DNA from: an uncultured delta proteobacterium | GTDB taxonomy: Bacteria > Desulfobacterota > Desulfobacteria > Desulfobacterales > SG8-13 | NCBI GenBank assembly: GCA_963848135.1 | Contig: CAWKCK010000002.1 | Span: forward strand, 62,001-126,000 | Length of the DNA stretch: 64,000 nucleotides | Direction of reading: 5' to 3' | In this document: piece by piece, positions 5,291-58,642 of the stretch | Layout: each line of letters starts with the position of its first letter | How positions within the stretch are numbered: position 1 is the stretch's first letter | Notes under the pieces: model-generated | What the model saw: only the letters and a program-made list of their open reading frames with translations | Databases searched by the model: none | What the model was told of the DNA's origin: nothing | Translations under genes and position numbers: made by a program

Positions 5291-5596
5291 TTCCCTAACG
5301 CTGAAGGAATGCCGGTCGACCTGTGGGTCTTCCGCCGAACACTCTCCGTAAAACAACCGGAATTGCTGGAAAAACTTACATGTTTTGACAGTTTCCAGAG
5401 GTCTAAACGGCCTGAAAATACACACTGCCTGCGAATGAAGGGCGACAATGGCCACGCCTGCGGTCAGTATCTATAGCCCCTCGTTTTAATTTAAGCCGCA
5501 CGATAATTGGGCGACAGTTTTACCATGAGGTACCTCGAGGATATGAGCCGGTGTTGGATGAATGTTTGGCTCAAGCAGCGCAAGGGGTGAAGCGCG

Positions 5597-40108: not shown

Positions 40109-43100
40109 TCAGGCGGCGGCTGGTTTGAAGGAATTGTGGAGAGTTTGGTCCATTACCGCTTCACATCCACTGATACGTGCCACCACAATACCTTCACCAT
40201 CCAGAAAAGTAATCGTACCCTTCATTTTGAAGCTACTGACCGAATCGACCTCCAGAACGGCTGTTAGACCGTCTGCCGGGAACCGGGGTCGGTACTGACG
40301 GTAATTGGCACAATAACTCGGCAGTGAGGCCGTTCCTTTTTCTTCGTAGCACCAGACCGTGGCCATCTGAAAGGCGGCATCCAGAGCCAAAGGGTCTGCT
40401 ATCCAATTGTTCCTGAGCGGTTCCTTCAACCAATCGGATGGTGCCGGAGCGGGATCAAGCTGCGCAATCATCCCATAACTCGAAAGGTGCGTGATTTCGC
40501 GGATGCCGTGCAAATCCGGTCCGTGGAAGAGGATTTGCTCATAAACTTGCTGAATTGTTCGGGTGTAGGGCCGTTGGGTGAGGGTGTCCGGTATGCGGTA
40601 GTCGGGTGCGGGTTTTAGCGTATCGACAAGAATTGCCCTGGCCCTCGAATGGACTACCTCCACATTGTCCTGAACACCGTCGCGAAGCTCAACCGGGACT
40701 TCGAAGCCGCTGCCGGTTTTTCGGGCTTTGCCTGCCAGCACCCGAACGTGTTTTTTGATGCCTTCAATTATAATGCCTTTTAGCACCCGAATGTCATCCA
40801 GCCCCTGCAGCTGGAGTCCTGGATTTTCGTGCAGGGCACCATGACCGAACCATTCGGTCATAAGGGCGAGCGGAACAACCGGTTTGCCGCCGATCATATG
40901 GGAACGAAGGACAGGATGGGTGCCAAGGTCGATATCCCGCTGGAAGGTCAACGACAAATTATTGCCGGTTATCTTTTCAACATCTACCTCGATGCTTTCC
41001 GCATTGGGCACTTCTTTGACAACGCTGAAGCCCGTGCCGCCAACAATCACTTCTACCTGTGGCTGGCTGGTAACACACATTTCGGCCACCAAGTGCCGGG
41101 CGCCGAGGTCAGTGGGAATCAGAGCGACCCCTCTGCGGTGGAATTCTCGTTTCAGGCTTGCCGTTACCATTCCGCCGTCCCAAGGTCCCCAATTGATTGC
41201 AACCACCCGGCAATTGGGGTTGTGTGCCGAAAACTGTTGGGCAATTTTATTCAAGGCTTCGTTGGCCATGGCATAATCGGCTTGGCCCCTGTTACCCATT
41301 CGCCCGCTAACCGAAGAGAACAGAATCAGATGACGCAGGTCTTTGGTGCCAGAAGCGGCCAGGATGTTTTCAAGTCCCCGAACTTTGGTTTCAAAGACCC
41401 TCTGGAACTGATCCGGTGTTTTGTCTTCGATCAGACGGTCCTCCAGAATACCGGCACCATGAACTACGGCAGTCACCGGGCCTTGGGTCGATATGATGTC
41501 TGAGATCGCCTGCTGCACGGCATCGGTATCTCGGATGTCGACCGACACATAGCGCACTGAGGCGCCGGCATTTTTAATTGCAGCCAGGTTATTTGCGATT
41601 TCGCGGTTGGCCATATACTTCCGGTAGGCGGCTTCCAATTGGGTCGGCGAACCACCACCGCTCACGTCGTTATCCAGAATGGCCCGCTTGATAGCGGTTT
41701 CATCATCGAGATCTTTCAACCATAAGGGTTCCGGCACCGGTGCGGGTGAACGTCCGAGCAGGTTCAACCTCGAGCCTGAGGCATTGGCCAGCGCAATGGA
41801 TGACGCCGCGGTTACACCTCTAGCACCGCCGGTGACAATCACAACGTCGCCGGGCGCCAATATACTATCCATCGGTTTAAGTTCAGCTATCGGAGACGCT
41901 TCAAGTTCGAGTACATAACGTCGATTCGTATCCAGCCCAAGTTCAACCGGGTCTGACGGATCGCGGCCCAACAGCTCTTCCACCAATTTCTCCGCAATTG
42001 CTCCATGATCCTGCCACCCTGGAGCGACATCGAAAGCGCGACAATGGACGCTGTTCCATTCGATGGCGGCTGTCTTTACCAGTCCGGACAGGGCACCCTG
42101 CAAGGGATGTGATACCCCTTTACCATGGAATCCGAAGGCACCGTCAAGCCGGGAGACAGTGGCAAATAGGGCACCCCCCTGGGCGGCCGATTTCTTCAAT
42201 TCGGGGGCCAGGCGCGTCGTCAGACGAAATATTTCCTTGAGCTCCTCTACCGGTAACGGATTGTCTGGGGAGAGAACGACAATCAAACCGCCGGCCGGTG
42301 GAAGATTCTCCTTGTATTTTAAAATGTTGGGTGAGATTAGAACCGTATTGATTTCAAGTTGCCCCAGCGTATCGGCAATGGCGGTCGAAAGGCCGTGGCT
42401 GTCTTCAGTAATGTAAACTTTGCGACCGGAAGGGATCAAAACCGGTGTGCGTTGGCCCGGCCGTTTATCAACAACGGTGACCACCTGGCGGCTTAAATTC
42501 GGAGAGGGTTGGGGTTTGGGGACAGATCGCGGTGGATCCGGCTGGTTTTCTATTGCCGTCGACTTGGCCGGTGTCTGATTGTCTATAGCCGGCGTTTCAA
42601 CCGGGGTCTTATTCGTGAGATGATTCACGATTTGCTGCAACGTTTTTAGTTTACCCAATTGGTCCGGAGCGACCGTGGGCAACCCCGGTATTTTTTCCTC
42701 CATGGCAGAGAGAATCTCTACCCGTTTAATTGAATCGATACCCAGATCGGCTTCGATGTCCATTTCTGCGCCGATCATGTCATTCGGATAGCCCGTCAAT
42801 TCGCTGACCACTTCCAATAAAACGGTCAGCAATTCATTTTGCGGGAGAAAATTCGGTATGACAGAATCCGCTTTGAGATCACTATCGCTGGTTGGTGCCG
42901 GCTCGGAATCCAATGGCGTATCCACAGGTTCCGACACGTTCAGCAGGTCTGCCACCTGCCGCAGGGTTTTCAGTTTTCCGATAACATCCGGAGCAACGGC
43001 AGGCATGCCCGGGACTCTTTCCTCGAGAGTAGAAAGTATCTCGACCCGTTTAATGGAGTCGATACCCAGATCCGATTCTATGTCCATGTCCGGATCAATC

Positions 43101-46100
43101 ATGTCCACAGGATAGCCGGTAAGCTCGCTAACGACGGCCAATAGAACTTGCTGTAAATTTTCGACGGTATTCGAATCGGAACGGTTCTCCGGTTCCGGTG
43201 ACGGTTTGCTGGCCGCCGGGGGATGGGCGGAAACATGGGAGTCCTCCACCTGTCCTTGGGGTATCGTGGTCTTTGATGAAGAAACACTCGCCGTCGGTCG
43301 AGGATCTATGGCTGCAACCCCCGGGGTGACTACAGGTTCGGTTCGATAGCTGATGGCGTTGGTTTCACGAATCGTCGTGTGCGCTGACTGAGCACCAATG
43401 GCTGATACAGCCGGCCTTTCACCCATCGACAACTCTGTCAACCGGTGGCTATGCTCCAGCATGTGCTGAAGCGTACGTCCGGCCTCTTTTTGCGTGTCTA
43501 GGAACTTCTGGTGCGTTTCAGCAGTTTGGCGCTGTAGAGTTTGCATCGAGGCCAGACTCTGCTGGACCGTCAACAGGGCTTGTTTGATCAGGTCGATGTC
43601 AGGGGTCATATTCTTCATAAGATCAGGGTTTCCATCAGGATGCTCCGGTTGTAAGGGTGGCCGTTCAGGTCGCGTCGACGGACCACCGCCGGGCATATCG
43701 TTTCGAATGGTTCTGTTAGGGTGGTTATGCTCATGGGCCCTTTTTACCGGTATATTCGATGGCCGGGGGCTTAAATCGGATGGGTTGCGGTAGTTGGCGC
43801 CTGTTAAAGGGATCTGCATCTGCGGTATACGGTGCTGACGGTGGTGGGGTTCCCATCGACGCCAATCAACGCGGTGTCCAGCGGCAGCCAGTTGGCAGAT
43901 TGTGTGGGCTATATCACTGAGGCTGGAACGTTTTCCTGCCGTTGCATCCATGGCCAGGGTCTGAAAATTTTCGCCGGCCAGGATTTCGTCGACCAGTCCG
44001 GATAAGACATTTCTCGGACCGACTTCGATAAACGTTCGTATCCCGGAATCAAACAGGTTTTTAATTTCCTGCACAAAATTGACGGTTTTCAGGAGATGGT
44101 CGCCCAAGAGTGCGGTTGCCGCGGCGCGACCTCCGGGGTAGGGCGCACCGGTGGAATTTGAGTATACCGGTATGGTCCCAGGGGACATGGTGATCGTCTC
44201 AAGCGCCTTTTTAAAGGGTGCCTGGGCCACTTTCACCAATTGACTATGGAAGGCTGCCGCTACCGGAAGCATAACGCTGCTGTATCCCTTCTGGCGGCAA
44301 ATCGTTTCGATGGTGCTAAGAGCGTCATAAGTGCCGGCCAACACGCCCTGATTCGGTGTATTGCAATTGGCCAGGACAACATCACTCCCGTGGGAATCGA
44401 TCAACTCCCTGAGATGTTCAAGGGGCGCCTTGACAGCCAACATTCCGCTTCGAGGGGCGGAGTCATTTGCAGCGGCCATTAAACGCCCGCGTGTGGTCGC
44501 AAGAGACAGAAAAGTCGGTTCGTCTATCCGGCCCGCAGCGTGTAGGGCCATTAGTTCACCGAAACTGTGACCGGCCGTGGCATGCGGCACGACACCAAAG
44601 GCGATCAGGACCTTGAACAGGGCCAAACTCATCGCACCGATGGCTGGTTGGGTGATATCGGTTCGACGCAAAACATCGGTTTGATGCCGCAGTTCTTCGG
44701 GTGTCGTTGCCGGGTGCGGGTAAATGGCGTCATACAGGCGTTCAGTGTCGTCAAACTGGCGGCATGCGGCTTCCAAGGCCCCAAAAGCCTCCGGAAAACG
44801 ACACATGAGATCACGACCCATCCCGGGGTACTGGCTGCCTTGACCAGGGAAAAGAAATGCCAGCTGACCAATTGGCGGGCCCTCCCCGGTGTATATTCCC
44901 TGACGAGGCGTCGCAGACGTTTCGATACCCTCTTGCAGCTGCCGCAGCTCTGCAGCAAGAATATCGGCCTCCACTGGCGGAGAGTGTAAAGAGTGGTCGG
45001 CAGAGCGGTCATGGACCCACATGAGGCGGTGGTGATCTTTTTCGTTAAAAGACCGGCGCGACCGGACGGCTGCGACGGAAAGCGCCGCTCCTTTTTCAAT
45101 ATCTGCCCGCACGGCCTCGATCTTCCGGATCAGTTCGGTCTTTGAGGAAGCAGACAAGGCCAGAATCTCGATCGATCCATCCCAGGTCATTTCGGTTTTT
45201 TCCGGACGGTGCTCTTCCAAAACGATATGAAAGTTGCTGCCGCCGAAACCGAATGCGCTGACGCCACAGCGACGAGGGTGCGCGGGATCGGCTATCCATG
45301 GACTGCTGTGTGTGTTGATGTAAAACGGTGATTTCGCAATTTCGAGTTTCGGGTCTGGCTGCGTTGCCTTGAGGGTCGGCGGCAGCACTTTGTGATGCAG
45401 GGCCAGGACGCCTTTGATGAGTCCGGCCGCGCCGGCAGCCGCTTTAGTATGGCCGATCATTGATTTGACGGAACCGATGGCACATTTCCGATTCCTGTCC
45501 GTGCCGTTTTCAAAAACCTGACGCAGGGCATTGAATTCGACGGCGTCACCGACTTTGGTACCCGTCCCGTGAGTTTCAATCAGGTCCACCGTTCCAGGGT
45601 CAACACCGGCTTGATCATAAGCCTTTCGAAGCGCCACGACCTGACCGTCTGCACGGGGGGCGTAAATACTCTGGGACTTGCCGTCGCTGGAACTTCCGAT
45701 ACCACGGATGACGGCATATATTCGATCGCCGTCTTTCTCGGCGTCCGCCAGGCGCTTCAACACCACCAGGCCGATACCTTCACCAAGAACGGTGCCGTCC
45801 GCATCGATTGAAAAAGGACGGGCATCTCCCGTGGGGGATAGAATACGGGTTTTGGCAAAGCACATATGCATGAAGATGTCGTTGAGGGTATCGACCCCTC
45901 CGGTGACAACCATATCGCTGCGACCAGAGGTGATTTCTAAAAGCGCCAGATGAACCGCACTGAGAGAGCTGGCACAGGCGGCGTCAACCACACAGTTTGT
46001 GCCTCTGAGATCGAGGCGATTGCAAATGCGGCCGGCCACCACATTGCCTAACAGGCCGGGAAAGGAACCTTCCTGCCACGCGACGTAGGAGTCCGAAATT

Positions 46101-46600
46101 CGTTGAATGACATTTTCAGTGGTTTCTGATTCAACACCGGCGGCATCGAGGGCCTTTTTCCATCTGGGGAATCCAAGCCTGGCGCCGAGCGGGATGACCA
46201 GTTCCTGAGTTCCGGTAACACCGAGAATGACGCTCGTGCGGTCACGGTCGAATTTTTTATCTTCACCATAGCCGGCGTCCATCAAAGCCGCTTTGGCGAC
46301 CAGAAGACTCAGGAGCTGGGATGAGTCGGTCGCCTCGAGAGCGTTCGGGGGGATACCGAATTCGGTCGGATCGAAGGAGACCGCAGGTAAAAAACCGCCG
46401 TTTTTGCAGTACGTGTGGTCCGGGGTTGTTGGGTCAATGTCAAAATATTCATCCGCCGACCAATGGGTCGGCGGGACTTCACTGATGGCATTTTCAGCGT
46501 TGAATATGAGACGCCAGTATTCTTTCAGCCCCGGAGATTTTGGAAATATACAGCCGATGCCGATGACGGCCACTGGCACTGTGGTCGGTTGGTTTGACAT
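40109..46600 (-). CDS. pfaA: PUFA-synthase PfaA-type: KS-MAT-ACP-ACP-KR-DH
   Basis: KS DAACASS/HGTGT/KSMIGHTK; MAT FPGQGSQ/GHSFG/AAFHS; two ACPs with DLGIDSIKRVEIL; KR VTGGARGVT/DYAMANE; DH HMIGGKPVVP. Start at MSNQ (track begins 46672). Confidence 0.92.
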   Translation of the reverse strand: MSNQPTTVPVAVIGIGCIFPKSPGLKEYWRLIFNAENAISEVPPTHWSADEYFDIDPTTPDHTYCKNGGFLPAVSFDPTEFGIPPNALEATDSSQLLSLLVAKAALMDAGYGEDKKFDRDRTSVILGVTGTQELVIPLGARLGFPRWKKALDAAGVESETTENVIQRISDSYVAWQEGSFPGLLGNVVAGRICNRLDLRGTNCVVDAACASSLSAVHLALLEITSGRSDMVVTGGVDTLNDIFMHMCFAKTRILSPTGDARPFSIDADGTVLGEGIGLVVLKRLADAEKDGDRIYAVIRGIGSSSDGKSQSIYAPRADGQVVALRKAYDQAGVDPGTVDLIETHGTGTKVGDAVEFNALRQVFENGTDRNRKCAIGSVKSMIGHTKAAAGAAGLIKGVLALHHKVLPPTLKATQPDPKLEIAKSPFYINTHSSPWIADPAHPRRCGVSAFGFGGSNFHIVLEEHRPEKTEMTWDGSIEILALSASSKTELIRKIEAVRADIEKGAALSVAAVRSRRSFNEKDHHRLMWVHDRSADHSLHSPPVEADILAAELRQLQEGIETSATPRQGIYTGEGPPIGQLAFLFPGQGSQYPGMGRDLMCRFPEAFGALEAACRQFDDTERLYDAIYPHPATTPEELRHQTDVLRRTDITQPAIGAMSLALFKVLIAFGVVPHATAGHSFGELMALHAAGRIDEPTFLSLATTRGRLMAAANDSAPRSGMLAVKAPLEHLRELIDSHGSDVVLANCNTPNQGVLAGTYDALSTIETICRQKGYSSVMLPVAAAFHSQLVKVAQAPFKKALETITMSPGTIPVYSNSTGAPYPGGRAAATALLGDHLLKTVNFVQEIKNLFDSGIRTFIEVGPRNVLSGLVDEILAGENFQTLAMDATAGKRSSLSDIAHTICQLAAAGHRVDWRRWEPHHRQHRIPQMQIPLTGANYRNPSDLSPRPSNIPVKRAHEHNHPNRTIRNDMPGGGPSTRPERPPLQPEHPDGNPDLMKNMTPDIDLIKQALLTVQQSLASMQTLQRQTAETHQKFLDTQKEAGRTLQHMLEHSHRLTELSMGERPAVSAIGAQSAHTTIRETNAISYRTEPVVTPGVAAIDPRPTASVSSSKTTIPQGQVEDSHVSAHPPAASKPSPEPENRSDSNTVENLQQVLLAVVSELTGYPVDMIDPDMDIESDLGIDSIKRVEILSTLEERVPGMPAVAPDVIGKLKTLRQVADLLNVSEPVDTPLDSEPAPTSDSDLKADSVIPNFLPQNELLTVLLEVVSELTGYPNDMIGAEMDIEADLGIDSIKRVEILSAMEEKIPGLPTVAPDQLGKLKTLQQIVNHLTNKTPVETPAIDNQTPAKSTAIENQPDPPRSVPKPQPSPNLSRQVVTVVDKRPGQRTPVLIPSGRKVYITEDSHGLSTAIADTLGQLEINTVLISPNILKYKENLPPAGGLIVVLSPDNPLPVEELKEIFRLTTRLAPELKKSAAQGGALFATVSRLDGAFGFHGKGVSHPLQGALSGLVKTAAIEWNSVHCRAFDVAPGWQDHGAIAEKLVEELLGRDPSDPVELGLDTNRRYVLELEASPIAELKPMDSILAPGDVVIVTGGARGVTAASSIALANASGSRLNLLGRSPAPVPEPLWLKDLDDETAIKRAILDNDVSGGGSPTQLEAAYRKYMANREIANNLAAIKNAGASVRYVSVDIRDTDAVQQAISDIISTQGPVTAVVHGAGILEDRLIEDKTPDQFQRVFETKVRGLENILAASGTKDLRHLILFSSVSGRMGNRGQADYAMANEALNKIAQQFSAHNPNCRVVAINWGPWDGGMVTASLKREFHRRGVALIPTDLGARHLVAEMCVTSQPQVEVIVGGTGFSVVKEVPNAESIEVDVEKITGNNLSLTFQRDIDLGTHPVLRSHMIGGKPVVPLALMTEWFGHGALHENPGLQLQGLDDIRVLKGIIIEGIKKHVRVLAGKARKTGSGFEVPVELRDGVQDNVEVVHSRARAILVDTLKPAPDYRIPDTLTQRPYTRTIQQVYEQILFHGPDLHGIREITHLSSYGMIAQLDPAPAPSDWLKEPLRNNWIADPLALDAAFQMATVWCYEEKGTASLPSYCANYRQYRPRFPADGLTAVLEVDSVSSFKMKGTITFLDGEGIVVARISGCEAVMDQTLHNSFKPAAA

Positions 46601-46894
46601 AATATCTTTTCCCACGAATTCAGACCCTTGGGTGGGTCTTTCTAAATCCTTTAGACCATTTGGTTCGGCCAAGGTGCCCCTTGAAAGTGGAAGCGTCCGT
46701 GTTGCCGGTCAGGGATCGCAAAATGATCGGATTCTCACATGATCCAAACCAATCTGTCGGAAATCGGAATTGACAGGCATGAACAACACAAACGTAGAGG
46801 GTGCGCTGGTCTGGCCGATGGCATCACCGGGCACACGTATCGGCTGGATATGGAGACAATATCTATACTGCATATATGATAGAATTGCAAGGGG

Positions 46895-46934
46895 TTGACG
46901 CGACATTTAATGCTTGATAGGTTGATATATCAAC
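46895..46934 (+). promoter_or_regulatory. Promoter with overlapping perfect 14-bp palindrome (candidate operator)
   Basis: TTGACG (46895-46900), 17 bp, TAGGTT (46918-46923); GTTGATATATCAAC at 46921-46934. Confidence 0.5.
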
Positions 46935-46951
46935 TATATAATAAAAAACTT

Positions 46952-47560
46952 ATGCTTCGATTTTTCACTAGCCGCGAATTATCCCATAACTTGCAAATAC
47001 CATTGGCAAAATGGAAACGTTGGTCCCGTGAATTTTTACCACCAGACCCTCTCGGTGGTCTGCAGTCCGGCGTTGCACGACGCTACAGCGTGGATCAGGC
47101 CTTGACCGTATATATCGGTGGCCACCTGGTTGCCGAACAAAAAGCAAGTATTCCCGAAGCCAGCCAGATAATGGCTGAACTGCATGCATGTTTCAAGGAT
47201 ATCGGTGTATTTGCCAATACACGAATCCACCCGCGGTACCGACTGGGGGAATACGGTGCCATTTCGTCCTTCTGCATCTTTATATGCCGCGATTTGAATG
47301 TTCCTATCGGCACATCGCCGTTTAATTTCACCGTCAGAGGATTGGTGTCCCGTGAGGTATTTGACGACGGAACGCACAAAGTCCACCGCGAAGATTATCT
47401 CGAAGTGTGTGTTCCCATGTCAACCCAAACACCGCTGGACATGTACAACAAAAACATAAAATTATTGCCCATTTCCGTCCTTGTAGATCAATTTACCAGA
47501 GCCATGAATCTTGACCGCGGGCACTTTCCAATTCTGGATCGCTACAATCCTGCATCCTGA
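46952..47560 (+). CDS. Hypothetical protein with N-terminal MerR-like winged HTH
   Basis: FFTSRELSHNLQIPLAKWKRWSREFLPP...GVARRYSVDQAL resembles the MerR/Xis HTH-wing pattern. Confidence 0.6.
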   Translation: MLRFFTSRELSHNLQIPLAKWKRWSREFLPPDPLGGLQSGVARRYSVDQALTVYIGGHLVAEQKASIPEASQIMAELHACFKDIGVFANTRIHPRYRLGEYGAISSFCIFICRDLNVPIGTSPFNFTVRGLVSREVFDDGTHKVHREDYLEVCVPMSTQTPLDMYNKNIKLLPISVLVDQFTRAMNLDRGHFPILDRYNPAS

Positions 47561-47583
47561 AGCGCAACCCCAAACTTGATTCA

Positions 47584-49251
47584 TTAATCCAAAAGATGGG
47601 AGATTTGTTCAGCGTTTAAAGGCCGGAATTTACCGACTTCGGGGGGCAGAAAAACCTTCTGGGCGGTCAACCATCCATACCGGACGAAAATTGCAGCGCC
47701 GATTAACAAGTTATGGGCGATCGTCACCACCGAACGATTTTCAGGCTTTTCCAAAAAAGATCCCTTCACCCATTCGTTGAAAGCCCCCATCGCCGGGCCA
47801 CACCAAATCTGATAGTCGATTTTGCGGGTCGGCTCACCGCAGTTGGCCCAGTTCGAGGACTGGCCCAAATAGGATCGAAAAACGAGCGCCATTTTATGCT
47901 TCGGATCATTCTCGGCAAGTGCTATCTGCCGCGGGTCCCTTTGGTTGAAAAAAGCCTTGGTTTGTTCCCATTCATCCTTGCAACTCCGGCGAAAAAAATC
48001 GCGTTCCAGAACCTGTTTTTCCCGGTGTGGTATACCGTCCAAGGATTTGCAGCGGGAATAAATGTCATAGAGCTTGGCCGCGCGGAAGGGGAACATCGTG
48101 CCCCTTTTAAGGACTTGCACTTTTACGCCCATTTCGAACATATCAGCAGCTGGCGCCATGGTAACATCCGCTTGGCTGGCTTCGGCCAGCATGGAACGTA
48201 CCATCCCGGACGTGCCGGCTTCAACGCAGGCCTGGTTGATCGAGCCGGTAAGAATATAGGCGGCACCCAGGGCAAAAGCGGCGGCGGCGGCACCCGGGGT
48301 CGCGATACCGCCTCCCAGGCCGACGCAGAGTGGACGGGGATACCTGTACTTTTCAGCCATTCTGTCCCTGAGAGCCAGGATTGTGGGCAGAAGGGAAATG
48401 GCTGGCTGGTTGTCGGTGTGTCCGCCCGAATCAGCTTCCGCGGTCATGGTCTCGGCCACCGGGATGGATTGGGCCAGTTCGGCTTCGGTTGAAGTGATCC
48501 ATTGGCGATCCACCAGTTGCCTCAGAATTCTCTCGGGTGGCGGCGAGAAAAATCTGCGTGCCACCTCGATCCGTGAAATTTTCGCAATGATCTGCCGCGG
48601 GGTGACGATCTGCCCGTTCGCATCCCGATGGATGCCTTTGATGCGGTAATAGACCAGCGGTAGCGTCAGGTCCAGATATGCTGACGCGCTGACCAAACGG
48701 ACACCGTGCTCAAGGTACAGGTCAACGGTTCCTTTTTCCAAATCGGGTTCGTTAGGGCTGTGAATCAAATTGACGCCGAAAGGAAGATCACCGAGTCGAT
48801 CCTGCAATTGAACAATCGCTTTTTCGATATCTTCAAGCGCCAGTCCGGCGGCGCCGAAGAAGCCGATCATACCTGCCCGGGCCACTGCTTCGACCATCTC
48901 GGTCGAGGTGATACCATTGGCCATGGCCCCGACAACATAGGGATAGCGCAATCGAAAGGCCGCTTTGAAATGCGGATCGCCTAAATCCTCGGGGTGCAGC
49001 GGGGGAACGTACCCCAGCAGGGGATATCCGTCCATCTTGGAATCGGCACTATCGAAAGGCCCATATTCGATGGTGGCGCGGCCGCCCCGACCGACACCGG
49101 GCGTTCCCCGGACATCCACGAGGACCACGGGTTCAGATACCCGTTGAATCGCTTGGCGGATGACATTGGAACCTGTCTCCGGTGGATGGTCGTTATTGGC
49201 CCACCATCCGATCCGAGAGGACAGTGGCGGAACTCCTGATTTAACTTTCAT
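47584..49251 (-). CDS. pfaD: PUFA-synthase enoyl reductase
   Basis: GAMANGI, EADSGGHTDN, APAADMFEMGVKVQVLKRGTMFP, DYQIWCGPAMGAFN. Confidence 0.93.
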   Translation of the reverse strand: MKVKSGVPPLSSRIGWWANNDHPPETGSNVIRQAIQRVSEPVVLVDVRGTPGVGRGGRATIEYGPFDSADSKMDGYPLLGYVPPLHPEDLGDPHFKAAFRLRYPYVVGAMANGITSTEMVEAVARAGMIGFFGAAGLALEDIEKAIVQLQDRLGDLPFGVNLIHSPNEPDLEKGTVDLYLEHGVRLVSASAYLDLTLPLVYYRIKGIHRDANGQIVTPRQIIAKISRIEVARRFFSPPPERILRQLVDRQWITSTEAELAQSIPVAETMTAEADSGGHTDNQPAISLLPTILALRDRMAEKYRYPRPLCVGLGGGIATPGAAAAAFALGAAYILTGSINQACVEAGTSGMVRSMLAEASQADVTMAPAADMFEMGVKVQVLKRGTMFPFRAAKLYDIYSRCKSLDGIPHREKQVLERDFFRRSCKDEWEQTKAFFNQRDPRQIALAENDPKHKMALVFRSYLGQSSNWANCGEPTRKIDYQIWCGPAMGAFNEWVKGSFLEKPENRSVVTIAHNLLIGAAIFVRYGWLTAQKVFLPPEVGKFRPLNAEQISHLLD

Positions 49252-51648: not shown

Positions 51649-52365
51649 ATGATGGACAGACTCAACTCCAACACTTACGATCAATACATCCGTGGCCTGA
51701 AAGATATCAGCCGGGCCATTACCTCAGACTTTTATATAGAGGACATTCTCAAATTGATCGTTATGGTCACGGCCAAAGTAACCGGGGTCGAAATTTGCTC
51801 GCTCTGGTTGATCGATGAAAACACATCTCCCACCAAGATCCGGCTCAAGGCCACCCAAGCCATCGATCACGAATATGTCAAAGATCGGGCGTTGAGTCTC
51901 AATGAGGGAATCGTCGGTTTTGTGGCCTCGACTAAAAAACCGCTGATGGTTTCTAATGTCCTCGAGGAGCCGCGGTTCAAAGAAAAAGAAATGGCCGCGA
52001 AACTGGGACTGGTATCGATGCTCAGCGTCCCGTTGCAGGTGCGCGACGGTAAAGTCATTGGTGTTCTCAACTGCTTTACTGCTGAGCCCCGCCTATTTAC
52101 CGATACCGAGGTCAATTTGATCACTACTGTGGCGAATCAGGCCGCAGTGGCGATTTTGAATACGGAACTGATGGTCAAATCGCAGGTGATACAACAAGAG
52201 CTGGAAACCCGCAAGCTGGTCGAGCGAGCCAAGGAAATCCTCATGAAACGCCGCAGCAAGACCGGTGAAGAAGCTTACCGCTGGCTGCAGAAACGAAGCA
52301 TGGACACGCGCACATCCATCCGCAGAGTTGCAGAGGCGGTCTTACTCTCAGAAGAAATTGATTGA
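51649..52365 (+). CDS. GAF-ANTAR RNA-binding antiterminator
   Basis: GAF (EGIVGFVA...SMLSVPL...IGVLNCFT...VANQAAVAI) followed by ANTAR LETRKLVERAKEILM...EEAYRWLQKRSMDTR. Confidence 0.92.
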   Translation: MMDRLNSNTYDQYIRGLKDISRAITSDFYIEDILKLIVMVTAKVTGVEICSLWLIDENTSPTKIRLKATQAIDHEYVKDRALSLNEGIVGFVASTKKPLMVSNVLEEPRFKEKEMAAKLGLVSMLSVPLQVRDGKVIGVLNCFTAEPRLFTDTEVNLITTVANQAAVAILNTELMVKSQVIQQELETRKLVERAKEILMKRRSKTGEEAYRWLQKRSMDTRTSIRRVAEAVLLSEEID

Positions 52366-52532
52366 TCCTTCCTCGATGACAATCATATGGCTTTGCTGGG
52401 GAAAACATACCTTGCAGTCCTCTAAACAGCCATCCTCAAACAAAATGTGTTGCCCATCCCATCAATTCAAGAGCATGGCCTTGATATTTCACTTCTATGG
52501 GGTTCAGATAACATCACCAAAAGTAATCTCCC

Positions 52533-52644
52533 TTGTAAGCATTCACAGGGCAACGCATCTGCTTTGTTGTCGGACACTTGAAGTACAAAAGTACGTCTGC
52601 GCGCCCGACGCCTTGAATTTGCGTCACCCTGTAAATGCTTACAA
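52533..52644. repeat. Long imperfect intergenic hairpin (miniature repeat element candidate 3)
   Basis: TTGTAAGCATTCACAGGGCAACGCA (52533-52557) pairs almost perfectly with TGCGTCACCCTGTAAATGCTTACAA (52620-52644); inner GTAC-aaaa-GTAC and CGCCTTG. Confidence 0.7.
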
Positions 52645-52800
52645 ATAGATGGCTTGATGCGCATTGGACCTTGCAACCCTTTGAACGGCTACTCTTCCTT
52701 TTCTTTGTAAAACTTAAAAAAATAGAGAATATTAAGTTAAACGGTTGACAAAAATATTTAGTAGAACTAATGGTAGTGAGCTAAATTAAATTATCATGTT

Positions 52801-52875
52801 TGCACAATGGCGTGCATTTTATGGGTTTTAGACAAAGGCGTCTTTTCCACCCGAAAGGACGCCTTTTTATTTTAT
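52801..52875 (+). promoter_or_regulatory. ANTAR-target dual-hairpin RNA overlapping an intrinsic terminator (attenuator)
   Basis: P1 TGCAC-AATGGC-GTGCA (52801-52816); P2 AGAC-AAAGGC-GTCT (52830-52843); terminator AAAGGCGTCTTT...AAGGACGCCTTT followed by a T-rich run; TTGACA at 52745. Confidence 0.88.
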
Positions 52876-52920
52876 TGGTCCCGAATTCCGGGAATATACC
52901 ATTTAGAAGGGGAGTGTATT

Positions 52921-54576
52921 ATGGAGAGAATTCTAAAAATTAATGATGCTTTGGGAACTACCAATCGGGGAAATCCCTGTGAATCAGGCCTTTGCACCCT
53001 TTGCCGGGCCGATTGCAAGGGTAAATGCGAAACCTGGCTTTCCAGCCTCGTGGGTCGTAAGCTGCTGTACCCTCGCAGCTATGGCATCGTGACCGCCGGC
53101 GCTAACAACACCTACCACGTAGGCGTTTCCTACAATTCGCTGCGCATTCAGGGCTATGCTTACGGATCGCATGGGCTGCAACAGGGTATGAGCAACGATC
53201 CGGACGACTGTATTTTCCCGAATGTCTCCCTTGAAACCGAATTCGGTCGGGAGGTCAAAACCAAAGCCCGCATCCCCCTGATGACCGGCGCATTGGGTTC
53301 GACCTTTGTCGCCCAGAAATACTGGAATTCTTTTGCTATTGGCGCGGCCCTGGTGGGCATCCCGGTGGTTATCGGCGAAAACGTGGTTGGCGTGGATCTC
53401 AAATCCGAAATCGGCACCGGTAAAGAACGTAAAGGCAAGATCAAGAGTGCCCCCGAGCTGGAACGCCGTATCGATGGCTACCTGCGCTACTTCGACGGGT
53501 ACGGCGCTATTATCGTCCAACTCAATGTTGAAGACACCCGTAACGGTGTGGCCGAATTTGTCGCCGACAAATACGGTGATAAAGTCATCATCGAATTGAA
53601 ATGGGGCCAGGGCGCCAAGGACATCGGTGGTGAAATCCAGGTCACCAGCTTGGACTACGCCCTCTTTTTGAAAGAACGCGGCTACGTGGTTGATCCGGAC
53701 CCCTCCTTGGCCGAAGTTCAGCAGGCTTTTGAAAACGGCTCCATCAAGTCGTTCGCCCGCCACAGCCGGCTGGGTGGCACCAACCTGAATACCGTGGAGC
53801 AGGTCCGGGCCGACTTCATGAGCGCGGTGGAATACCTGCGCAGCATTGGCTTCAAGCGCATCACCCTCAAAACCGGTTCCTACGGCATGGAAGAGCTGGC
53901 CATGGCCATAAAATTCTCAACCGACGCTGGCCTTGACCTGCTCACCATAGACGGTTCAGGAGGCGGCACCGGGATGAGTCCCTGGAACATGATGCAAAGC
54001 TGGGGGGTTCCCTCCATCGACCTGCACTCCAAGGCTTACCAATATGCTAACATCCTGGCCGCAAAGGGCCAGAGGGTAGTGGACATGTCCTTTGCCGGCG
54101 GCTTTGCCCTCGAAGACAGCATTTTCAAGGCCTTGGCTCTGGGCGCCCCCTTTACTAAACTGGTTTGCATGGGCCGGGCCATCATGATTCCCGGGTTTGT
54201 GGGCTCCAATATATACGGCGCGCTTCATCCGGAGGAAAGAGGTAAAGTAAACGGCCTTTGGGGGGAACTGCCCAAAACCGTTCGGGAGGTGGGCAACAGC
54301 GCCAAGGAAATCTTCGCCGGCTATTTTGACGTGGAGAAGAAGGTGGGTAAGGATGAAATGAAAAATATCCCCTACGGCGCTATTGCCTTCTGGACCATGG
54401 CCGACAAGCTCTCCTGCGGTCTGCAGCAGCTGCTGGCCGGTGCCCGTAAATTTTCAGTCAAACATCTCACACGTAACGAGCTTTTCTCCGGTAACCGGGA
54501 AACCGCTCGCGAAACAGGCATCCCGCACGTAACCGATGTCAATGATGAAAGCGCCAGGAAAATACTAAACTCATAA
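52921..54576 (+). CDS. Stand-alone FMN-binding glutamate-synthase-family protein
   Basis: N-terminal CESGLCTLCRADCKGKC, TGALGST, IELKWGQGAKDIGGE, DGSGGGTGMSP, FAGG, CMGRA; AGGGGAG RBS before ATG 52921. Confidence 0.85.
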   Translation: MERILKINDALGTTNRGNPCESGLCTLCRADCKGKCETWLSSLVGRKLLYPRSYGIVTAGANNTYHVGVSYNSLRIQGYAYGSHGLQQGMSNDPDDCIFPNVSLETEFGREVKTKARIPLMTGALGSTFVAQKYWNSFAIGAALVGIPVVIGENVVGVDLKSEIGTGKERKGKIKSAPELERRIDGYLRYFDGYGAIIVQLNVEDTRNGVAEFVADKYGDKVIIELKWGQGAKDIGGEIQVTSLDYALFLKERGYVVDPDPSLAEVQQAFENGSIKSFARHSRLGGTNLNTVEQVRADFMSAVEYLRSIGFKRITLKTGSYGMEELAMAIKFSTDAGLDLLTIDGSGGGTGMSPWNMMQSWGVPSIDLHSKAYQYANILAAKGQRVVDMSFAGGFALEDSIFKALALGAPFTKLVCMGRAIMIPGFVGSNIYGALHPEERGKVNGLWGELPKTVREVGNSAKEIFAGYFDVEKKVGKDEMKNIPYGAIAFWTMADKLSCGLQQLLAGARKFSVKHLTRNELFSGNRETARETGIPHVTDVNDESARKILNS

Positions 54577-54601
54577 CCAGGTGCGGTAGTAGACAATAAT
54601 G

Positions 54602-54637
54602 GGCTTGCTGGAGCAGTCCTCCGGCAGGCCTTTTATT
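54602..54637 (+). terminator. Rho-independent terminator
   Basis: GGCTTGCTGGAG-cagtc-CTCCGGCAGGCC followed by TTTTATT. Confidence 0.75.
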
Positions 54638-54703
54638 ATTAGTCTTCAAGTTTTTGAAAACAAAACAAAATAACCCCATCCATTATTTCACACTCCCTTT
54701 TTC

Positions 54704-56008
54704 TCACTTAATCAATAGCCAAATGAGTTGCGCGTTTTTACGGCTCGTATTCTTCCATTGGCCTGGTACTTCGGTGGTAAGATAGACGACATCACCAGTC
54801 GTAACTTTCTGGAAGGTGGCGCCAATTTTTAGTTGGAGTTCACCATTTAACATGTAACCGAATTCGTCACCCTTGTGATTAAAAAAGTGCCCGGAAAGAT
54901 TGGTTTTACCTGGGACTTCGATAAGAAAGGGCTCTGACCTGGTTACCCGGTCAGTAGTCATCAATGATTTAACGATTACACTGTCTTTCGGTAGACTGGC
55001 TAATTTGACTTGTCGCGTTTCGGAGGCGGGGAAAATAAAGGGGTGTGTCTGACTCTCAAGCGGTTCATTGAAGATTTTTCCCACATCAACATTGAGGGAT
55101 TCGGCCATTTTGAAGAGGGCCGGCAGGGAAGGGTAGATCAAGCAGCTTTCAATTTGAGATATGGTACTGGGAGTGACCCCCACGAGTTTGGCCAGTTCGG
55201 TTTGAGACAACCCCTGGCGGGTGCGCAACTCCTTGAGGCGACCCCCTAAATCGATACGGCCGCTCTTACGAGGTTCCGAGTCAAACGTTACCTCAAGGCC
55301 TTTGGACCAGTAGAGATAGGGTTTGTTTAGTGTTTCCAGATCACGTTTTTCGGCCTTTAATACGGTCAGCGAGGTTTTGCCCCTTTTGACGGCAAGATCG
55401 ATGGCCACTTGAGCGACCTGGTTGATCCTGGCGCGCAGTCGCTGCGAATGGGCGCGTTTTTCGATGATCCAGTAAGCAACGGTGTTCAATTCGTAAAGCC
55501 GCGGGCAGGAGTGGGAATAGAAATTGATGATATGATCCTCTCCCCCCCAAAGCTCCTGCATTCCGGTGAGGCTTTCAAATATGAAACGCACATCCCCTTT
55601 CAGCTGGGAATGGGCATCATAAACAGCCTCCATAACATGGTGGTCGTTGCGGGGGTCTTCGATGCGGATGATCTTGCAGCCAGGATGTGGCGCATCGTCC
55701 TGGTAAAACTTCAAAAACACATCAGAGCCGTCGCCCTTACCGTAAGTGAAACAGTCAAGGATAATCAAGTGGTCGCTGTCTGCCAATGAACCCAGTTTGT
55801 CGAGCAGGTTTCGGGGTGAGCGGTCGAAACTGACATAAATCAATGTCTTGCCCCTGGCATGGGAAGACAAAATTAAATTGAGATAAAAGACAGGGGCCAG
55901 ACTGCCGGCGTCGTCATACCAGACGACGTTGTCCCCAATGCACAGACCATCGAGCAGCCGGTCAAGGTGGTCAATCCCGGTTGACACCCGCGATTTGTTG
56001 TGTTCCAT
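54704..56008 (-). CDS. Regulator: degenerate KaiC/RAD55-like domain + XRE HTH + cupin
   Basis: VSTGIDHLDRLLDG start without an intact Walker A; LGGRLKELRTRQGLSQTELAKLVGVTPSTISQIES..PSL; HKGDEFGYMLNGEL..GDVVY. Confidence 0.85.
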   Translation of the reverse strand: MEHNKSRVSTGIDHLDRLLDGLCIGDNVVWYDDAGSLAPVFYLNLILSSHARGKTLIYVSFDRSPRNLLDKLGSLADSDHLIILDCFTYGKGDGSDVFLKFYQDDAPHPGCKIIRIEDPRNDHHVMEAVYDAHSQLKGDVRFIFESLTGMQELWGGEDHIINFYSHSCPRLYELNTVAYWIIEKRAHSQRLRARINQVAQVAIDLAVKRGKTSLTVLKAEKRDLETLNKPYLYWSKGLEVTFDSEPRKSGRIDLGGRLKELRTRQGLSQTELAKLVGVTPSTISQIESCLIYPSLPALFKMAESLNVDVGKIFNEPLESQTHPFIFPASETRQVKLASLPKDSVIVKSLMTTDRVTRSEPFLIEVPGKTNLSGHFFNHKGDEFGYMLNGELQLKIGATFQKVTTGDVVYLTTEVPGQWKNTSRKNAQLIWLLIK

Positions 56009-56274: not shown

Positions 56275-57519
56275 TTAGAGATGCTTGGCAAGGCTGAGCT
56301 GATTTTTGAGGATGCTGACTTTGTATTCCGGTTGCGTCAGGTCGTGGTGGCCACAGATAAATGGGACGTATACCAGAAAATAGCTTTGCGGTGTCAGTTT
56401 GATATTGGCGAGATCGGGGTAGAAAACATTACGCGGTTTGATGAAATCAGCCAGAATGACTTTGAGGCTTTCCACAGCCTCTTCGACGTTTAAGGTGACC
56501 GGATGCATGACACCATCGGGCAAGTGCTCCACCGTGGTCTCCTGTGGTAGGCTCAAGGTCATTTTAGTTGCTAGAGGGAGAAACGTCTGCGGTCTGATTT
56601 TAAATGCCGGGGTAAAGAAGCGGTAGGGTATGTCACGCCATTCCGGGCGGGCGACCACGGGCAGGTTGGCCACCTTGGCCAAATCGGCGTAGGTATCGAG
56701 GACCAAACCCATAATATCGGCCTTAATTCGCCAAAAAGGGAGATACAGAACCGGAAAGTCGGTATCAACGTTGAGTGTCAGATGGCCGAATTTCAACCGT
56801 TTGAGGTGCGAATTGCCCGCTTTCCAGGCGGAATTGCAGTTTCGACAAAGCAACACCAGGGTGTCACGCGGGCCCTCCAGATCCCAACCGCAATCGGGGC
56901 AGAGAGTGGGTAGGAAATTGAGTCCCCAACGGGGTTTGTCGGCCGTTTTCAACATTTGGCTTACGTCATCCGTAATCCGAGTACCGACCGGTTCGTTAAG
57001 GACCGCATCATAGAGGCAATCCTCAACGTAAAACGGGGCGTAGATGAGGCTTGAGTGCTCGCCGATATGCGCCTGGTGATAGATCGGTTTTGGCAGCGGC
57101 TGGCTGTAATTCTGTTCCTGTATTTGCATCATTTGGTCCAAGGATCGGTTGATGGGGAGAAAACGGCCAGCGGATTCAGGCGAAATGAACCGTAGTTTGA
57201 GGGTTTGGCTTCTGAAGCCGAGCGAAATCGGCAAATGCGATGACACCAGAGCCTGGTAGCTGACATCGATATATTTTTGCCGTACACCGTCGGGAACACA
57301 GGAAAAGAGCATTCCTTTGAATCGCCAGTAGGGGATGTAGTAAAGTGTTTTGCCCTCCGGCGCCTTGTCGGGCAGCAGGTAGCGAAAAACGCCACGGGAA
57401 TACAGGTAAGACCTGACCCGGCAGAAGTCGCAGGTAAACAGCCGATCGGTCTCCGAAAGTACGGCGGGAGCGCCGCACTGGGGGCATTGATGCTCAATAA
57501 GAAGATTAAAGTTTTTCAC
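56275..57519 (-). CDS. Zinc-ribbon hypothetical protein (YdjG-like)
   Basis: CPQCGA..CDFC and CPDCGW..CRNC, each followed by Y(I/L)P(Y/F)WR; GTG start overlaps the SPFH stop. Confidence 0.7.
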   Translation of the reverse strand: MKNFNLLIEHQCPQCGAPAVLSETDRLFTCDFCRVRSYLYSRGVFRYLLPDKAPEGKTLYYIPYWRFKGMLFSCVPDGVRQKYIDVSYQALVSSHLPISLGFRSQTLKLRFISPESAGRFLPINRSLDQMMQIQEQNYSQPLPKPIYHQAHIGEHSSLIYAPFYVEDCLYDAVLNEPVGTRITDDVSQMLKTADKPRWGLNFLPTLCPDCGWDLEGPRDTLVLLCRNCNSAWKAGNSHLKRLKFGHLTLNVDTDFPVLYLPFWRIKADIMGLVLDTYADLAKVANLPVVARPEWRDIPYRFFTPAFKIRPQTFLPLATKMTLSLPQETTVEHLPDGVMHPVTLNVEEAVESLKVILADFIKPRNVFYPDLANIKLTPQSYFLVYVPFICGHHDLTQPEYKVSILKNQLSLAKHL

Positions 57520-58642
57520 CGCACTGATTGCAGAACATGGCATCGGTTAAGTTGTCGGTATTGCACTTCCCACAGACGCGAGGCTGCGGCTTCTCGTCTA
57601 CGGCCTGGCCGCAGCGGGGGCAGAATTTTGCACTTGTGGTCAGGTTTTTTCCGCAGTGTCGACATTGGTCGAAAACCACTTGCTGGTGGCCGCACTGAGA
57701 ACAGAACTTGGCATCCACCTGAATGGGGCTTTTGCATTCGGGGCAATTGCTGGCCTGCGCGCCGGTATCGGTCTCGGGTTGGTTCTTTTCACCCGTAAAA
57801 TAGTGCGCAAACATGGCGGGCAGCATCAATCCAACTCCGGCGCCCATGCCCATGGATGCTCCCGAGCTCCCCTCGGCTTCCGATGCTTTTTCCATTGCCA
57901 TGGCCGCTTTCATCTGCATCAGTTTGTTCATGTCATCGAAGACGCCCATACGGCTGCGGTCGTCGATGGCCTGCTGTACTTCGGGAGGCGGCGTGACGGC
58001 ATTAACGTAAATATGCGTCAAACGGATACCGAAATGGCTGAAATCGTTTTGGAGCCGTTCGGAGAGGCCTTGGGAGAGGTCGTCGTATTGGGATGGCAGA
58101 TCGAGGATCGAATTGAGGGTATCGCCCATATAGTCGTTGAAGCGGGAAACGATGACCCGGTTGAGGTACTCTTCGATTTCAGCTGTCGTAAACATTCCCT
58201 TGGTACCGACCATCGCGTTGATGAACAATACCGGCTGCACGATTTGCAGGTTGAAAACACCGAATGCGCGCAGACGGATCAGCCCCAGTTCGGAATCTTT
58301 GAATGCCACCGGGTCCCGGGTTCCCCATTTCAAATTCGTGAAGACTTTCAGATTGACCAGATAGACCTCGGCCCGCAGAGGGCTGCTCATGGCCCACGGC
58401 AGGCTCGCAAGTTTGGTCAATATGGGGATGTTTGCCGTCTTGAGGGTATGACGGCCGGGCCCGAAGACCCCGACGGCTTTGCCGCGATAGAAAAAAATGC
58501 CTGCCTGGCTCTCCCGGACGGTAAGCTGGGCGCCGAATTTGATTTCGCCGGAACCCTCTTCGGGAATCCGGTGGACAAGTTCCTGTCCGGTTTCGTCGAA
58601 CCATTCAATGTTTTCCAAAAAAATGAGGTTATTGGTACCCAT
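57506..58642 (-). CDS. SPFH/band-7 (YdjI-like) protein with C-terminal double zinc ribbons
   Basis: GAQLTVRESQ, VFGPGRHTLKTANIPIL, KWGTRDPV, LRAFG, PPEVQQAID; three pairs of CxxC. Confidence 0.85.
   Translation of the reverse strand: MGTNNLIFLENIEWFDETGQELVHRIPEEGSGEIKFGAQLTVRESQAGIFFYRGKAVGVFGPGRHTLKTANIPILTKLASLPWAMSSPLRAEVYLVNLKVFTNLKWGTRDPVAFKDSELGLIRLRAFGVFNLQIVQPVLFINAMVGTKGMFTTAEIEEYLNRVIVSRFNDYMGDTLNSILDLPSQYDDLSQGLSERLQNDFSHFGIRLTHIYVNAVTPPPEVQQAIDDRSRMGVFDDMNKLMQMKAAMAMEKASEAEGSSGASMGMGAGVGLMLPAMFAHYFTGEKNQPETDTGAQASNCPECKSPIQVDAKFCSQCGHQQVVFDQCRHCGKNLTTSAKFCPRCGQAVDEKPQPRVCGKCNTDNLTDAMFCNQCGEKL

What the first reader, a model, noticed from the sequence alone, without database searches (positions are those of the whole stretch)
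51649..54637. Complete ANTAR antitermination circuit: GAF-ANTAR protein, its dual-hexaloop RNA and an attenuated stand-alone FMN glutamate-synthase-family gene
Seen: the leader of the 52921 gene has two hairpins with hexaloops AATGGC and AAAGGC (A at position 1, G at position 4), 13 nt apart. P2 is mutually exclusive with the 5' arm of a strong terminator, and a GAF-ANTAR gene lies about 440 bp upstream. Established: ANTAR proteins (AmiR, NasR, EutV) bind such tandem hexaloops to antiterminate. Inference: this one-component GAF sensor controls the gene according to an unknown ligand, probably nitrogen status. The RNA is invisible to the ORF track, which extends the CDS through it.
Basis: partly seen in the sequence, partly recalled or inferred. 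Interest (0 to 1): 0.82.

Follow-up and report, generated by a model that had tools for sequence, protein, structure and literature searches.

The report
Two-tier ANTAR switch before glutamate-synthase-like gene
A glutamate-synthase-like gene of this sulfate-reducing bacterium is preceded by two small RNA hairpins overlapping a transcription stop signal, which the RNA-binding sensor protein encoded next door very likely holds open; this is a known kind of switch, here with an untested sensor type and a conserved promoter palindrome that likely adds a second, DNA-level control.

Summary
Two hexaloop hairpins (52801-52816, 52830-52843, 13 nt apart) are present, the second excludes a 14-bp terminator, and the true start is 52921. 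The leader recurs in 66 of 100 homologous loci; P1 shows compensatory and G-U changes, so it acts as RNA. The genome has one ANTAR gene, this GAF-ANTAR, and leader and gene co-occur across genomes. A second target precedes an mvhD-metV-metF-split-gltB operon; glnA, amtB, gltBD and gdhA of this genome carry no such leader. A palindrome TTAGT-N3-ACTAA sits inside the promoter (38 of 63 loci against 2 of 794 control sites). Its candidate binder is the KaiC-like/XRE/cupin gene next door (adjacent in 23 of 34 genomes); the evidence for that is mixed. ANTAR leaders before glutamate-synthase-like genes are in print (PMC3369931), and this scan found the GAF-ANTAR circuit before in other genomes. Ligand, one-component action and the enzyme's reaction are untested. 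New variant of a known kind.

The parts
51649..52365 (+). GAF-ANTAR protein, 238 aa; the only ANTAR gene found in the genome; no receiver domain
   Evidence: Pfam GAF 31-169, ANTAR 181-232; one PF03861 match in the genome; model shows one long helix 152-202 joining the domains
52535..52692 (.). 158-bp dispersed repeat inserted between the regulator gene and the promoter; not part of the switch
   Evidence: 46 other blastn matches in the genome, most 145-176 bp; gap to the enzyme start is 559 nt here, 392 and 275 nt in two close relatives; no Rfam match
52745..52773 (+). Predicted sigma-70-type promoter: perfect TTGACA at 52745-52750, weak -10 (TAATGG) 17 nt on
   Evidence: TTGAC found upstream of P1 in 63 of 64 leader-bearing loci; not listed by the strict scan because the -10 is weak; start site not mapped
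52758..52770 (.). Palindrome TTAGT-AGA-ACTAA in the promoter spacer, overlapping the -10; predicted operator
   Evidence: 8 or more of 10 matches in 38 of 63 loci against 2 of 794 control TTGAC sites; 22 of 27 exact pattern matches in 61 genomes lie at this gene's promoter
52801..52816 (+). P1 hairpin, hexaloop AATGGC
   Evidence: covariation 0.389 against 0.160 in shuffles and at most 0.134 when slid
52830..52843 (+). P2 hairpin, hexaloop AAAGGC; alternative to the terminator
   Evidence: three inner pairs invariant in 47 aligned leaders (partly by selection); same 12 letters as the Rfam P11/NalA consensus
52834..52876 (+). Intrinsic terminator (14-bp stem, T-rich tail)
   Evidence: a terminator follows P2 in 66 of 100 loci
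52907..52914 (+). Ribosome-binding site of the enzyme gene
   Evidence: AAGGGGAG 6 nt before ATG 52921
52921..54576 (+). Stand-alone FMN TIM-barrel protein of the glutamate-synthase family, 551 aa, with invariant N-terminal CX2CX3CX3C; no amidotransferase domain; reaction unknown
   Evidence: PF01645 over residues 297-423 only, no NCBIfam model; alignment; fold
54601..54641 (+). Terminator closing the single-gene transcript
54704..56008 (-). KaiC-like (degenerate P-loop)/XRE helix-turn-helix/cupin protein, 434 aa; candidate binder of the palindrome
   Evidence: domains; directly adjacent to the enzyme gene in 23 of 34 genomes holding both; association with the palindrome

Best explanation
The leader carries two hexaloop hairpins overlapping a terminator, and the neighbouring GAF-ANTAR protein very likely binds them as a dimer when its GAF domain senses a metabolite, which would hold P2 folded, block the terminator and let transcription run into the glutamate-synthase-like gene. 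Without bound protein the more stable terminator forms and transcription is predicted to stop near 52870. The same protein likely controls, from a distance, the mvhD-metV-metF-split-gltB operon, so the regulon is one of glutamate-forming genes; the signal is most likely the glutamine/2-oxoglutarate/glutamate balance (inferred, about 60%). Initiation at the same promoter is likely gated separately through the palindrome, most probably by the KaiC-like/XRE/cupin protein encoded downstream (inferred, about 55%). Shown: sequence features, conservation, covariation, co-occurrence. Inferred: binding, termination, ligand, the operator's protein, the enzyme's reaction. The confidence refers to the antitermination core.
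For: Mutually exclusive folds. 66 of 100 distinct homologous loci have P2 plus terminator, 63 of those 66 also P1. P1 covaries, with 59 double-sided and 32 wobble changes in 47 sequences. One ANTAR gene in the genome and two model hits. ANTAR gene found in 32 of 34 leader-bearing and 4 of 16 leaderless genomes; in 41 relatives 30 have both, 8 neither, 2 RNA only, 1 ANTAR only. GAF-ANTAR gene within the fetched flanks in 33 of 80 loci. P2 equals the NasT-bound stretch family P11/NalA. 14 of 17 further target regions precede the mvhD-metVF-gltB operon, one gltB, one gdhA. Closest GAF structures are PtsP GAFs, a class reported to sense Gln/2-oxoglutarate (PMC5024086).
Against: No transcript data: no RNA run listed, so start and stop sites are unmapped. 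The 13-nt linker is just over the 5-12 nt range of eut leaders, and 14 nt impaired EutV (PMC3369931); family loop-to-loop distances run 27-58 nt. P2's invariance is partly due to how it was selected. cAMP/cGMP-binding GAFs score nearly as well as PtsP. For the operator: three genomes 94-98% complete keep the palindrome though the XRE gene was not found, seven XRE-positive leader loci have a weak palindrome, and the XRE genes show no conserved copy upstream of themselves. Kin are not independent and many genomes are incomplete.
Confidence: 0.88

Rival explanations
1. Antitermination is real but the GAF-ANTAR protein is not a one-component sensor: a partner protein (a PII protein, the XRE/cupin protein or an unlinked sensor) switches it, as NasS does NasT and AmiC does AmiR.
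For: Partner switching is documented for NasS/NasT (PMC11387622). The genome has two clear PII genes. The XRE/cupin gene was found only in ANTAR-positive genomes in the 50-genome set (24 of 24) and sits next to the ANTAR gene rather than the enzyme gene in G018.
Against: No kinase or other sensor gene is conserved beside the regulator in 80 loci; the GAF domain has many invariant residues, as expected of a ligand pocket; in the 61 relatives ANTAR occurs without a detected XRE gene in several genomes.
Confidence: 0.25
2. The signal is not nitrogen status but redox, a one-carbon metabolite or a cyclic nucleotide; the targets are flavin/Fe-S redox enzymes.
For: glnA, amtB, gltBD and gdhA of this genome lack the leader; the second target begins with MvhD and MetVF; cyclic-nucleotide GAFs rank close behind PtsP; the enzyme's fold is as close to alpha-hydroxy-acid oxidases and IDI-2 as to GltS.
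Against: All identified targets include glutamate-synthase-family genes or gdhA; published ANTAR leaders cluster before nitrogen genes (PMC3369931); PtsP and NifA are the top NCBIfam matches.
Confidence: 0.25
3. P1 is a DNA palindrome for a transcription factor (it resembles an NtrC box, recalled consensus TGCAC-N7-GTGCA) and the terminator is constitutive.
For: TGCAC-N6-GTGCA is a perfect inverted repeat in this window.
Against: Outer pairs change freely with compensation and G-U wobble, which only RNA tolerates; the loop is conserved on one strand only; spacing is 6, not 7; P2 and terminator travel with it and with the ANTAR gene.
Confidence: 0.03
4. The promoter palindrome is no operator, only the local form of the -10 element plus AT-rich spacer.
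For: Its right half overlaps the first bases of the -10; mixed correlation with the XRE gene; no further regulon found: 5 off-target matches against 19 control matches.
Against: Symmetric G and C are kept (40 and 41 of 53); 13 promoters of the sister ANTAR target, with the same -35, score 3-5 of 10 (8 of the 13 from one genus); it persists between enzyme groups only about 50% identical.
Confidence: 0.15

Closest known systems
EutV with eut leaders of Enterococcus faecalis, and the predicted ANTAR leaders before glutamate-synthase(-like) genes in Desulfotomaculum, Desulfitobacterium, Carboxydothermus (PMC3369931; passages and supplement files 5, 6 seen)
   Same: Dual hexaloop with A1/G4, P2 overlapping an intrinsic terminator; glutamate-synthase-type targets
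   Different: Input is a fused GAF domain, not a phosphorylated receiver; longer linkers; no Desulfobacterales row among the 8 'Desulf' entries of supplement file 6
NasS/NasT with P11/NalA of Pseudomonas aeruginosa (Rfam RF00625; PMC11387622, passages seen)
   Same: P2 and terminator 5' arm share 12 letters with the Rfam consensus; antitermination of nitrogen-assimilation genes
   Different: Match is far below the family threshold (17.8 against 70 bits); NasT is switched by the partner NasS and nitrate; targets are nitrite/nitrate reductases
GnfK/GnfR of Geobacter sulfurreducens (PMC2995071, passages seen)
   Same: Same phylum, ANTAR binding to a CAANGGCG-type site overlapping terminators
   Different: Two-component kinase/receiver system under sigma-54 control; targets nifH, nifEN, glnK, amtB, which is not the regulon found here
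NasR of Klebsiella oxytoca, one-component NIT-ANTAR (PMC7496416, passages seen)
   Same: Sensor fused to ANTAR; model for ligand-relieved autoinhibition
   Different: NIT sensor and nitrate; that paper names only NasR and PAL as characterised one-component ANTARs
Synthase (FMN) domain of glutamate synthase GltB/GltS (PF01645)
   Same: FMN TIM barrel; keeps the ExKxxQGAK and DGxxGGTG motifs
   Different: No amidotransferase domain, no C-terminal three-cysteine cluster motif, new N-terminal four-cysteine motif; no neighbouring subunits in this locus

Membership tests
ANTAR dual-hexaloop attenuator | Two hairpins, at least 3 bp each, hexaloops with A1 and G4 | tested here: met
ANTAR dual-hexaloop attenuator | P2 mutually exclusive with an intrinsic terminator | tested here: met
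   computed folds
ANTAR dual-hexaloop attenuator | Structure conserved as RNA (covariation) | tested here: met
   P1; P2 invariant, so uninformative
ANTAR dual-hexaloop attenuator | Linker within the 5-12 nt range seen in eut leaders | tested here: inconclusive
   13 nt here; the family runs longer; range from PMC3369931 applies to EutV
ANTAR dual-hexaloop attenuator | Cognate ANTAR protein in the genome | tested here: met
ANTAR dual-hexaloop attenuator | Protein binds the RNA and causes read-through | not testable with these tools
   needs binding and transcription assays; no RNA run listed
One-component ANTAR regulator (NasR type) | Sensor domain fused to ANTAR, no receiver domain | tested here: met
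One-component ANTAR regulator (NasR type) | Ligand binding alone switches RNA binding | not testable with these tools
   ligand unknown
Rfam P11/NalA (RF00625) | Reaches the gathering score | tested here: not met
   17.8 against 70 bits
Glutamate synthase large subunit (GltB/GltS) | Glutamine amidotransferase domain in the protein or adjacent gene | tested here: not met
   not among conserved neighbours; a split GATase subunit exists elsewhere in the genome
Glutamate synthase large subunit (GltB/GltS) | C-terminal CX5CX4C cluster motif of the synthase domain | tested here: not met
   no cysteines opposite the GltB motif
Glutamate synthase large subunit (GltB/GltS) | FMN barrel with synthase-domain motifs | tested here: met
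   K233, R253, T350 invariant; their match to the 2-oxoglutarate ligands of GltS is recalled, not found in print
Glutamate synthase large subunit (GltB/GltS) | Forms glutamate from 2-oxoglutarate | not testable with these tools
   needs enzyme assay

The most novel reading that the evidence does not exclude
Sulfate reducers run a glutamate-supply regulon apart from the sigma-54 Ntr system: a GAF-ANTAR attenuator and a KaiC-like/XRE/cupin repressor form an AND gate on an amidotransferase-free iron-sulfur flavoenzyme that makes glutamate straight from ammonia and 2-oxoglutarate with ferredoxin-level electrons, a third route beside GS-GOGAT and GDH.
Probability: 0.18. Interest if true: 0.75.

Novelty: new variant of a known kind. 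Interest (0 to 1): 0.43.

Why it matters
It gives a compact, testable pairing of a GAF-type ANTAR protein with two natural RNA targets in one genome; no characterised GAF-ANTAR turned up in the papers searched. The regulon (alternative glutamate-synthase genes, not glnA/amtB) narrows the ligand to a short list and is the best clue so far to the job of a very widespread unassigned flavoenzyme family (at least 7999 homologs). The promoter palindrome and its candidate regulator were not found in the papers or earlier scan notes searched. The core mechanism itself is textbook.

Tried and rejected
PII trimer with the GAF domain: no answer from the complex prediction, score 0.00, no evidence either way. 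Rfam: no family reaches threshold for the leader or the repeat. Start at 52807 rejected (homolog lengths, ribosome site; the loop ATG is absent from AACGGC/AAAGGC loops). glnA, amtB/glnK, gltB, gdhA and the regulator's own upstream region: no leader (about 500 nt upstream of approximate starts, and a model search that scored 150 of 1350 candidates). My first genome scan missed the second target because its P1 has a mismatch; two searches found it. A second TTGACA-palindrome site at C3:592733 is not kept in three orthologous promoters and is treated as chance, as is one between convergent genes at C3:559843. Self-regulation of the XRE gene: no conserved palindrome upstream in 30 loci. Sequence search of the enzyme against the PDB: nothing with one sequence, GltS only at E 0.58 with a profile; GltS is not among the top 50 structural rows, which does not exclude kinship. 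Paper search for GltS active-site numbering found nothing; none of the 12 listed papers naming the enzyme family characterises it, judged by listing only.
Full report
Observation. Folding gives P1 plus terminator as the stable form (z -4.38). In growing transcripts P2 closes with probability 0.9 or more up to 52858 and is gone from 52861; forcing P1+P2 costs about 10 kcal/mol. The bare hairpin pair is common (85 of 500 shuffles; 4949 loose pairs in the genome), the pair with an overlapping terminator is not (2 of 500). The gene 436 bp upstream encodes GAF (31-169) plus ANTAR (181-232). The mechanical ORF begins at 52807 in the P1 loop; homolog lengths and the ribosome site at 52907-52914 place the start at 52921.

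Conservation. I collected 110 loci of the enzyme gene; record titles show mostly Desulfobacterota. After dropping truncated and duplicate upstream regions, 66 of 100 have P2 plus terminator and 63 of those 66 have P1 (own locus included). On 47 of these, chosen to avoid near-duplicates and long outliers, P1 is 94% paired, four of six pairs change on both sides, 32 cells are wobble changes, and the covariation score is 0.389 against 0.160 in shuffles and at most 0.134 when slid. Relatedness inflates the shuffle test; the slid control and the G-U pairs still argue for RNA and against a DNA box. P2's three pairs never vary, partly because I selected on them. P2 shares 12 letters with the Rfam P11 consensus, far under threshold; P11 is NalA, the NasT-bound leader (PMC11387622, passages).

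Pairing with the protein. The genome has one ANTAR match. A GAF-ANTAR gene lies within the fetched flanks of 33 of 80 loci. Of 50 genomes I picked from those 80 loci, ANTAR was found in 32 of 34 with the leader and 4 of 16 without. In 41 relatives searched with a model built from the leaders, 30 have RNA and ANTAR, 8 neither, 2 RNA only, 1 ANTAR only; the three discordant genomes are 82-85% complete (some training leaders come from these genomes). I did not check the N-terminal domain of every distant ANTAR match.

Regulon. The model finds two sites in the own genome: this one and one on contig C17 before mvhD-metV-metF and three split glutamate-synthase genes. Upstream regions of glnA (two), amtB/glnK (two), gltB and gdhA carry no such leader; gltB and glnK-amtB show sigma-54-like -24/-12 motifs instead. 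In relatives I fetched 17 regions covering 19 of 22 further hits: 14 precede the same mvhD-metVF-gltB operon (recognised by likeness to the own proteins), one gltB, one gdhA, one runs off a contig. The regulon is thus glutamate-forming genes, not the Ntr set.

Second tier. Upstream of P1, TTGAC is found in 63 of 64 leader-bearing loci, followed after about 7 nt by TTAGT-N3-ACTAA: 8 or more of 10 matches in 38 of 63 loci (own and four near-identical loci left out) against 2 of 794 AT-rich TTGAC sites of the own genome, one being this site. Thirteen promoters of the sister operon score 3-5. An exact pattern search gave 27 matches in 25 of 61 genomes, 22 at this gene's promoter, 5 elsewhere, against 19 control matches. 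The convergent gene 54704-56008 encodes a KaiC-like domain with degenerate P-loop, an XRE helix-turn-helix and a cupin; it is directly adjacent to the enzyme gene in 23 of 34 relatives holding both, across 10 families, and divergent from it in L080. The palindrome scores 7 or more in 36 of 44 loci from XRE-positive genomes and 7 of 34 where XRE was not found; among leader-bearing loci 36 of 43 against 7 of 15. G043 (96% complete) keeps palindrome and XRE gene but has neither leader nor detected ANTAR. Against: G007, G025 and G041 keep the palindrome without a detected XRE gene, seven XRE-positive leader loci score low, and there is no self-site. The palindrome is real; its protein is a candidate.

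Sensor. The model shows GAF joined to ANTAR by one long helix. Top sequence and fold matches are PtsP GAF domains; NCBIfam's best partial matches are PtsP and NifA. These classes are reported to respond to glutamine and 2-oxoglutarate (PMC5024086, passages). Cyclic-nucleotide GAFs follow closely, so the ligand is an inference.

Enzyme. PF01645 covers only residues 297-423 and no NCBIfam model matches. In 24 aligned homologs C25, C28, C32 and C36 are invariant and the synthase-domain motifs are kept, while the three-cysteine motif of GltB has no counterpart. The model (mean pLDDT 79.6) is an FMN TIM barrel, no closer to GltS than to alpha-hydroxy-acid oxidases or IDI-2. K233, R253 and T350 fall where I recall the 2-oxoglutarate ligands of GltS; no paper confirmed this. 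gdhA neighbours the gene in 3 of 80 loci. The reaction is unknown.

Comparison. Ramesh et al. (PMC3369931; passages and supplement files 5, 6; one .doc supplement unreadable) define the motif and already list hits before glutamate-synthase-like genes in Firmicutes; the 8 'Desulf' entries of file 6 hold no Desulfobacterales. They state that no PAS- or GAF-ANTAR had been characterised; PMC7496416 (passages) names only NasR and PAL. GnfK/GnfR (PMC2995071, passages) is the nearest tested system in the phylum but is two-component with nif/amt targets. Searches for a GAF-ANTAR study or the XRE operator found none, within an open-access library. Earlier notes of this scan describe the same circuit in other genomes; none on the palindrome or the XRE gene surfaced.

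Verdict. Real and well supported: a known attenuation mechanism with an uncharacterised sensor type, a two-operon glutamate regulon and a likely operator layer. New variant of a known kind; interest 0.43.

Noticed in passing
window 52535-52692: 158-bp dispersed repeat with a long predicted stem, 46 other matches in the genome at 74-96% identity; no Rfam match. Looks like a miniature mobile element.
   Followed up: partly
G000:C17:1275854-1275944 (-), L119: Second ANTAR leader before mvhD-metV-metF and three split glutamate-synthase genes; the coupling of MetVF/MvhD to a split GOGAT is conserved in at least 14 relatives.
   Followed up: yes
L195 (G030:C88), 3966-5319 (-): A duplicated leader and mvhD start appear fused to a sequence that looks like isocitrate dehydrogenase (judged by eye); real duplication or assembly error not checked.
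   Followed up: no
L016 / G024:C83:6596-10264: Two tandem paralogs of the FMN enzyme gene behind one leader, with the GAF-ANTAR gene divergent.
   Followed up: no
L038, L039, L087, L112 leaders: Extra hexaloop hairpins beyond P1/P2 (a third after the terminator, or two before P2).
   Followed up: no
L094 upstream of the enzyme gene: In an Elusimicrobia record, two AATGGY hexaloop hairpins without a clear terminator, close to the ribosome site; two ANTAR genes in that genome. Possibly translational control.
   Followed up: no
G000:C3:592733-594381, L116: Tandem pair of unknown membrane-protein genes (no Pfam match for the first) behind a TTGACA-palindrome-like site that is not conserved in orthologs.
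   Followed up: partly
window 40109-49251 (-): Large iterative PKS/PUFA-synthase-like gene and a PfaD-like enoyl reductase (FabD_helical_ins/NMO) flank a 221-aa gene without Pfam match at 46895-47560.
   Followed up: no
window 56275-58642 (-): SPFH/Band-7 double-zinc-ribbon gene followed by a 422-aa zinc-ribbon protein with no Pfam or NCBIfam match.
   Followed up: no
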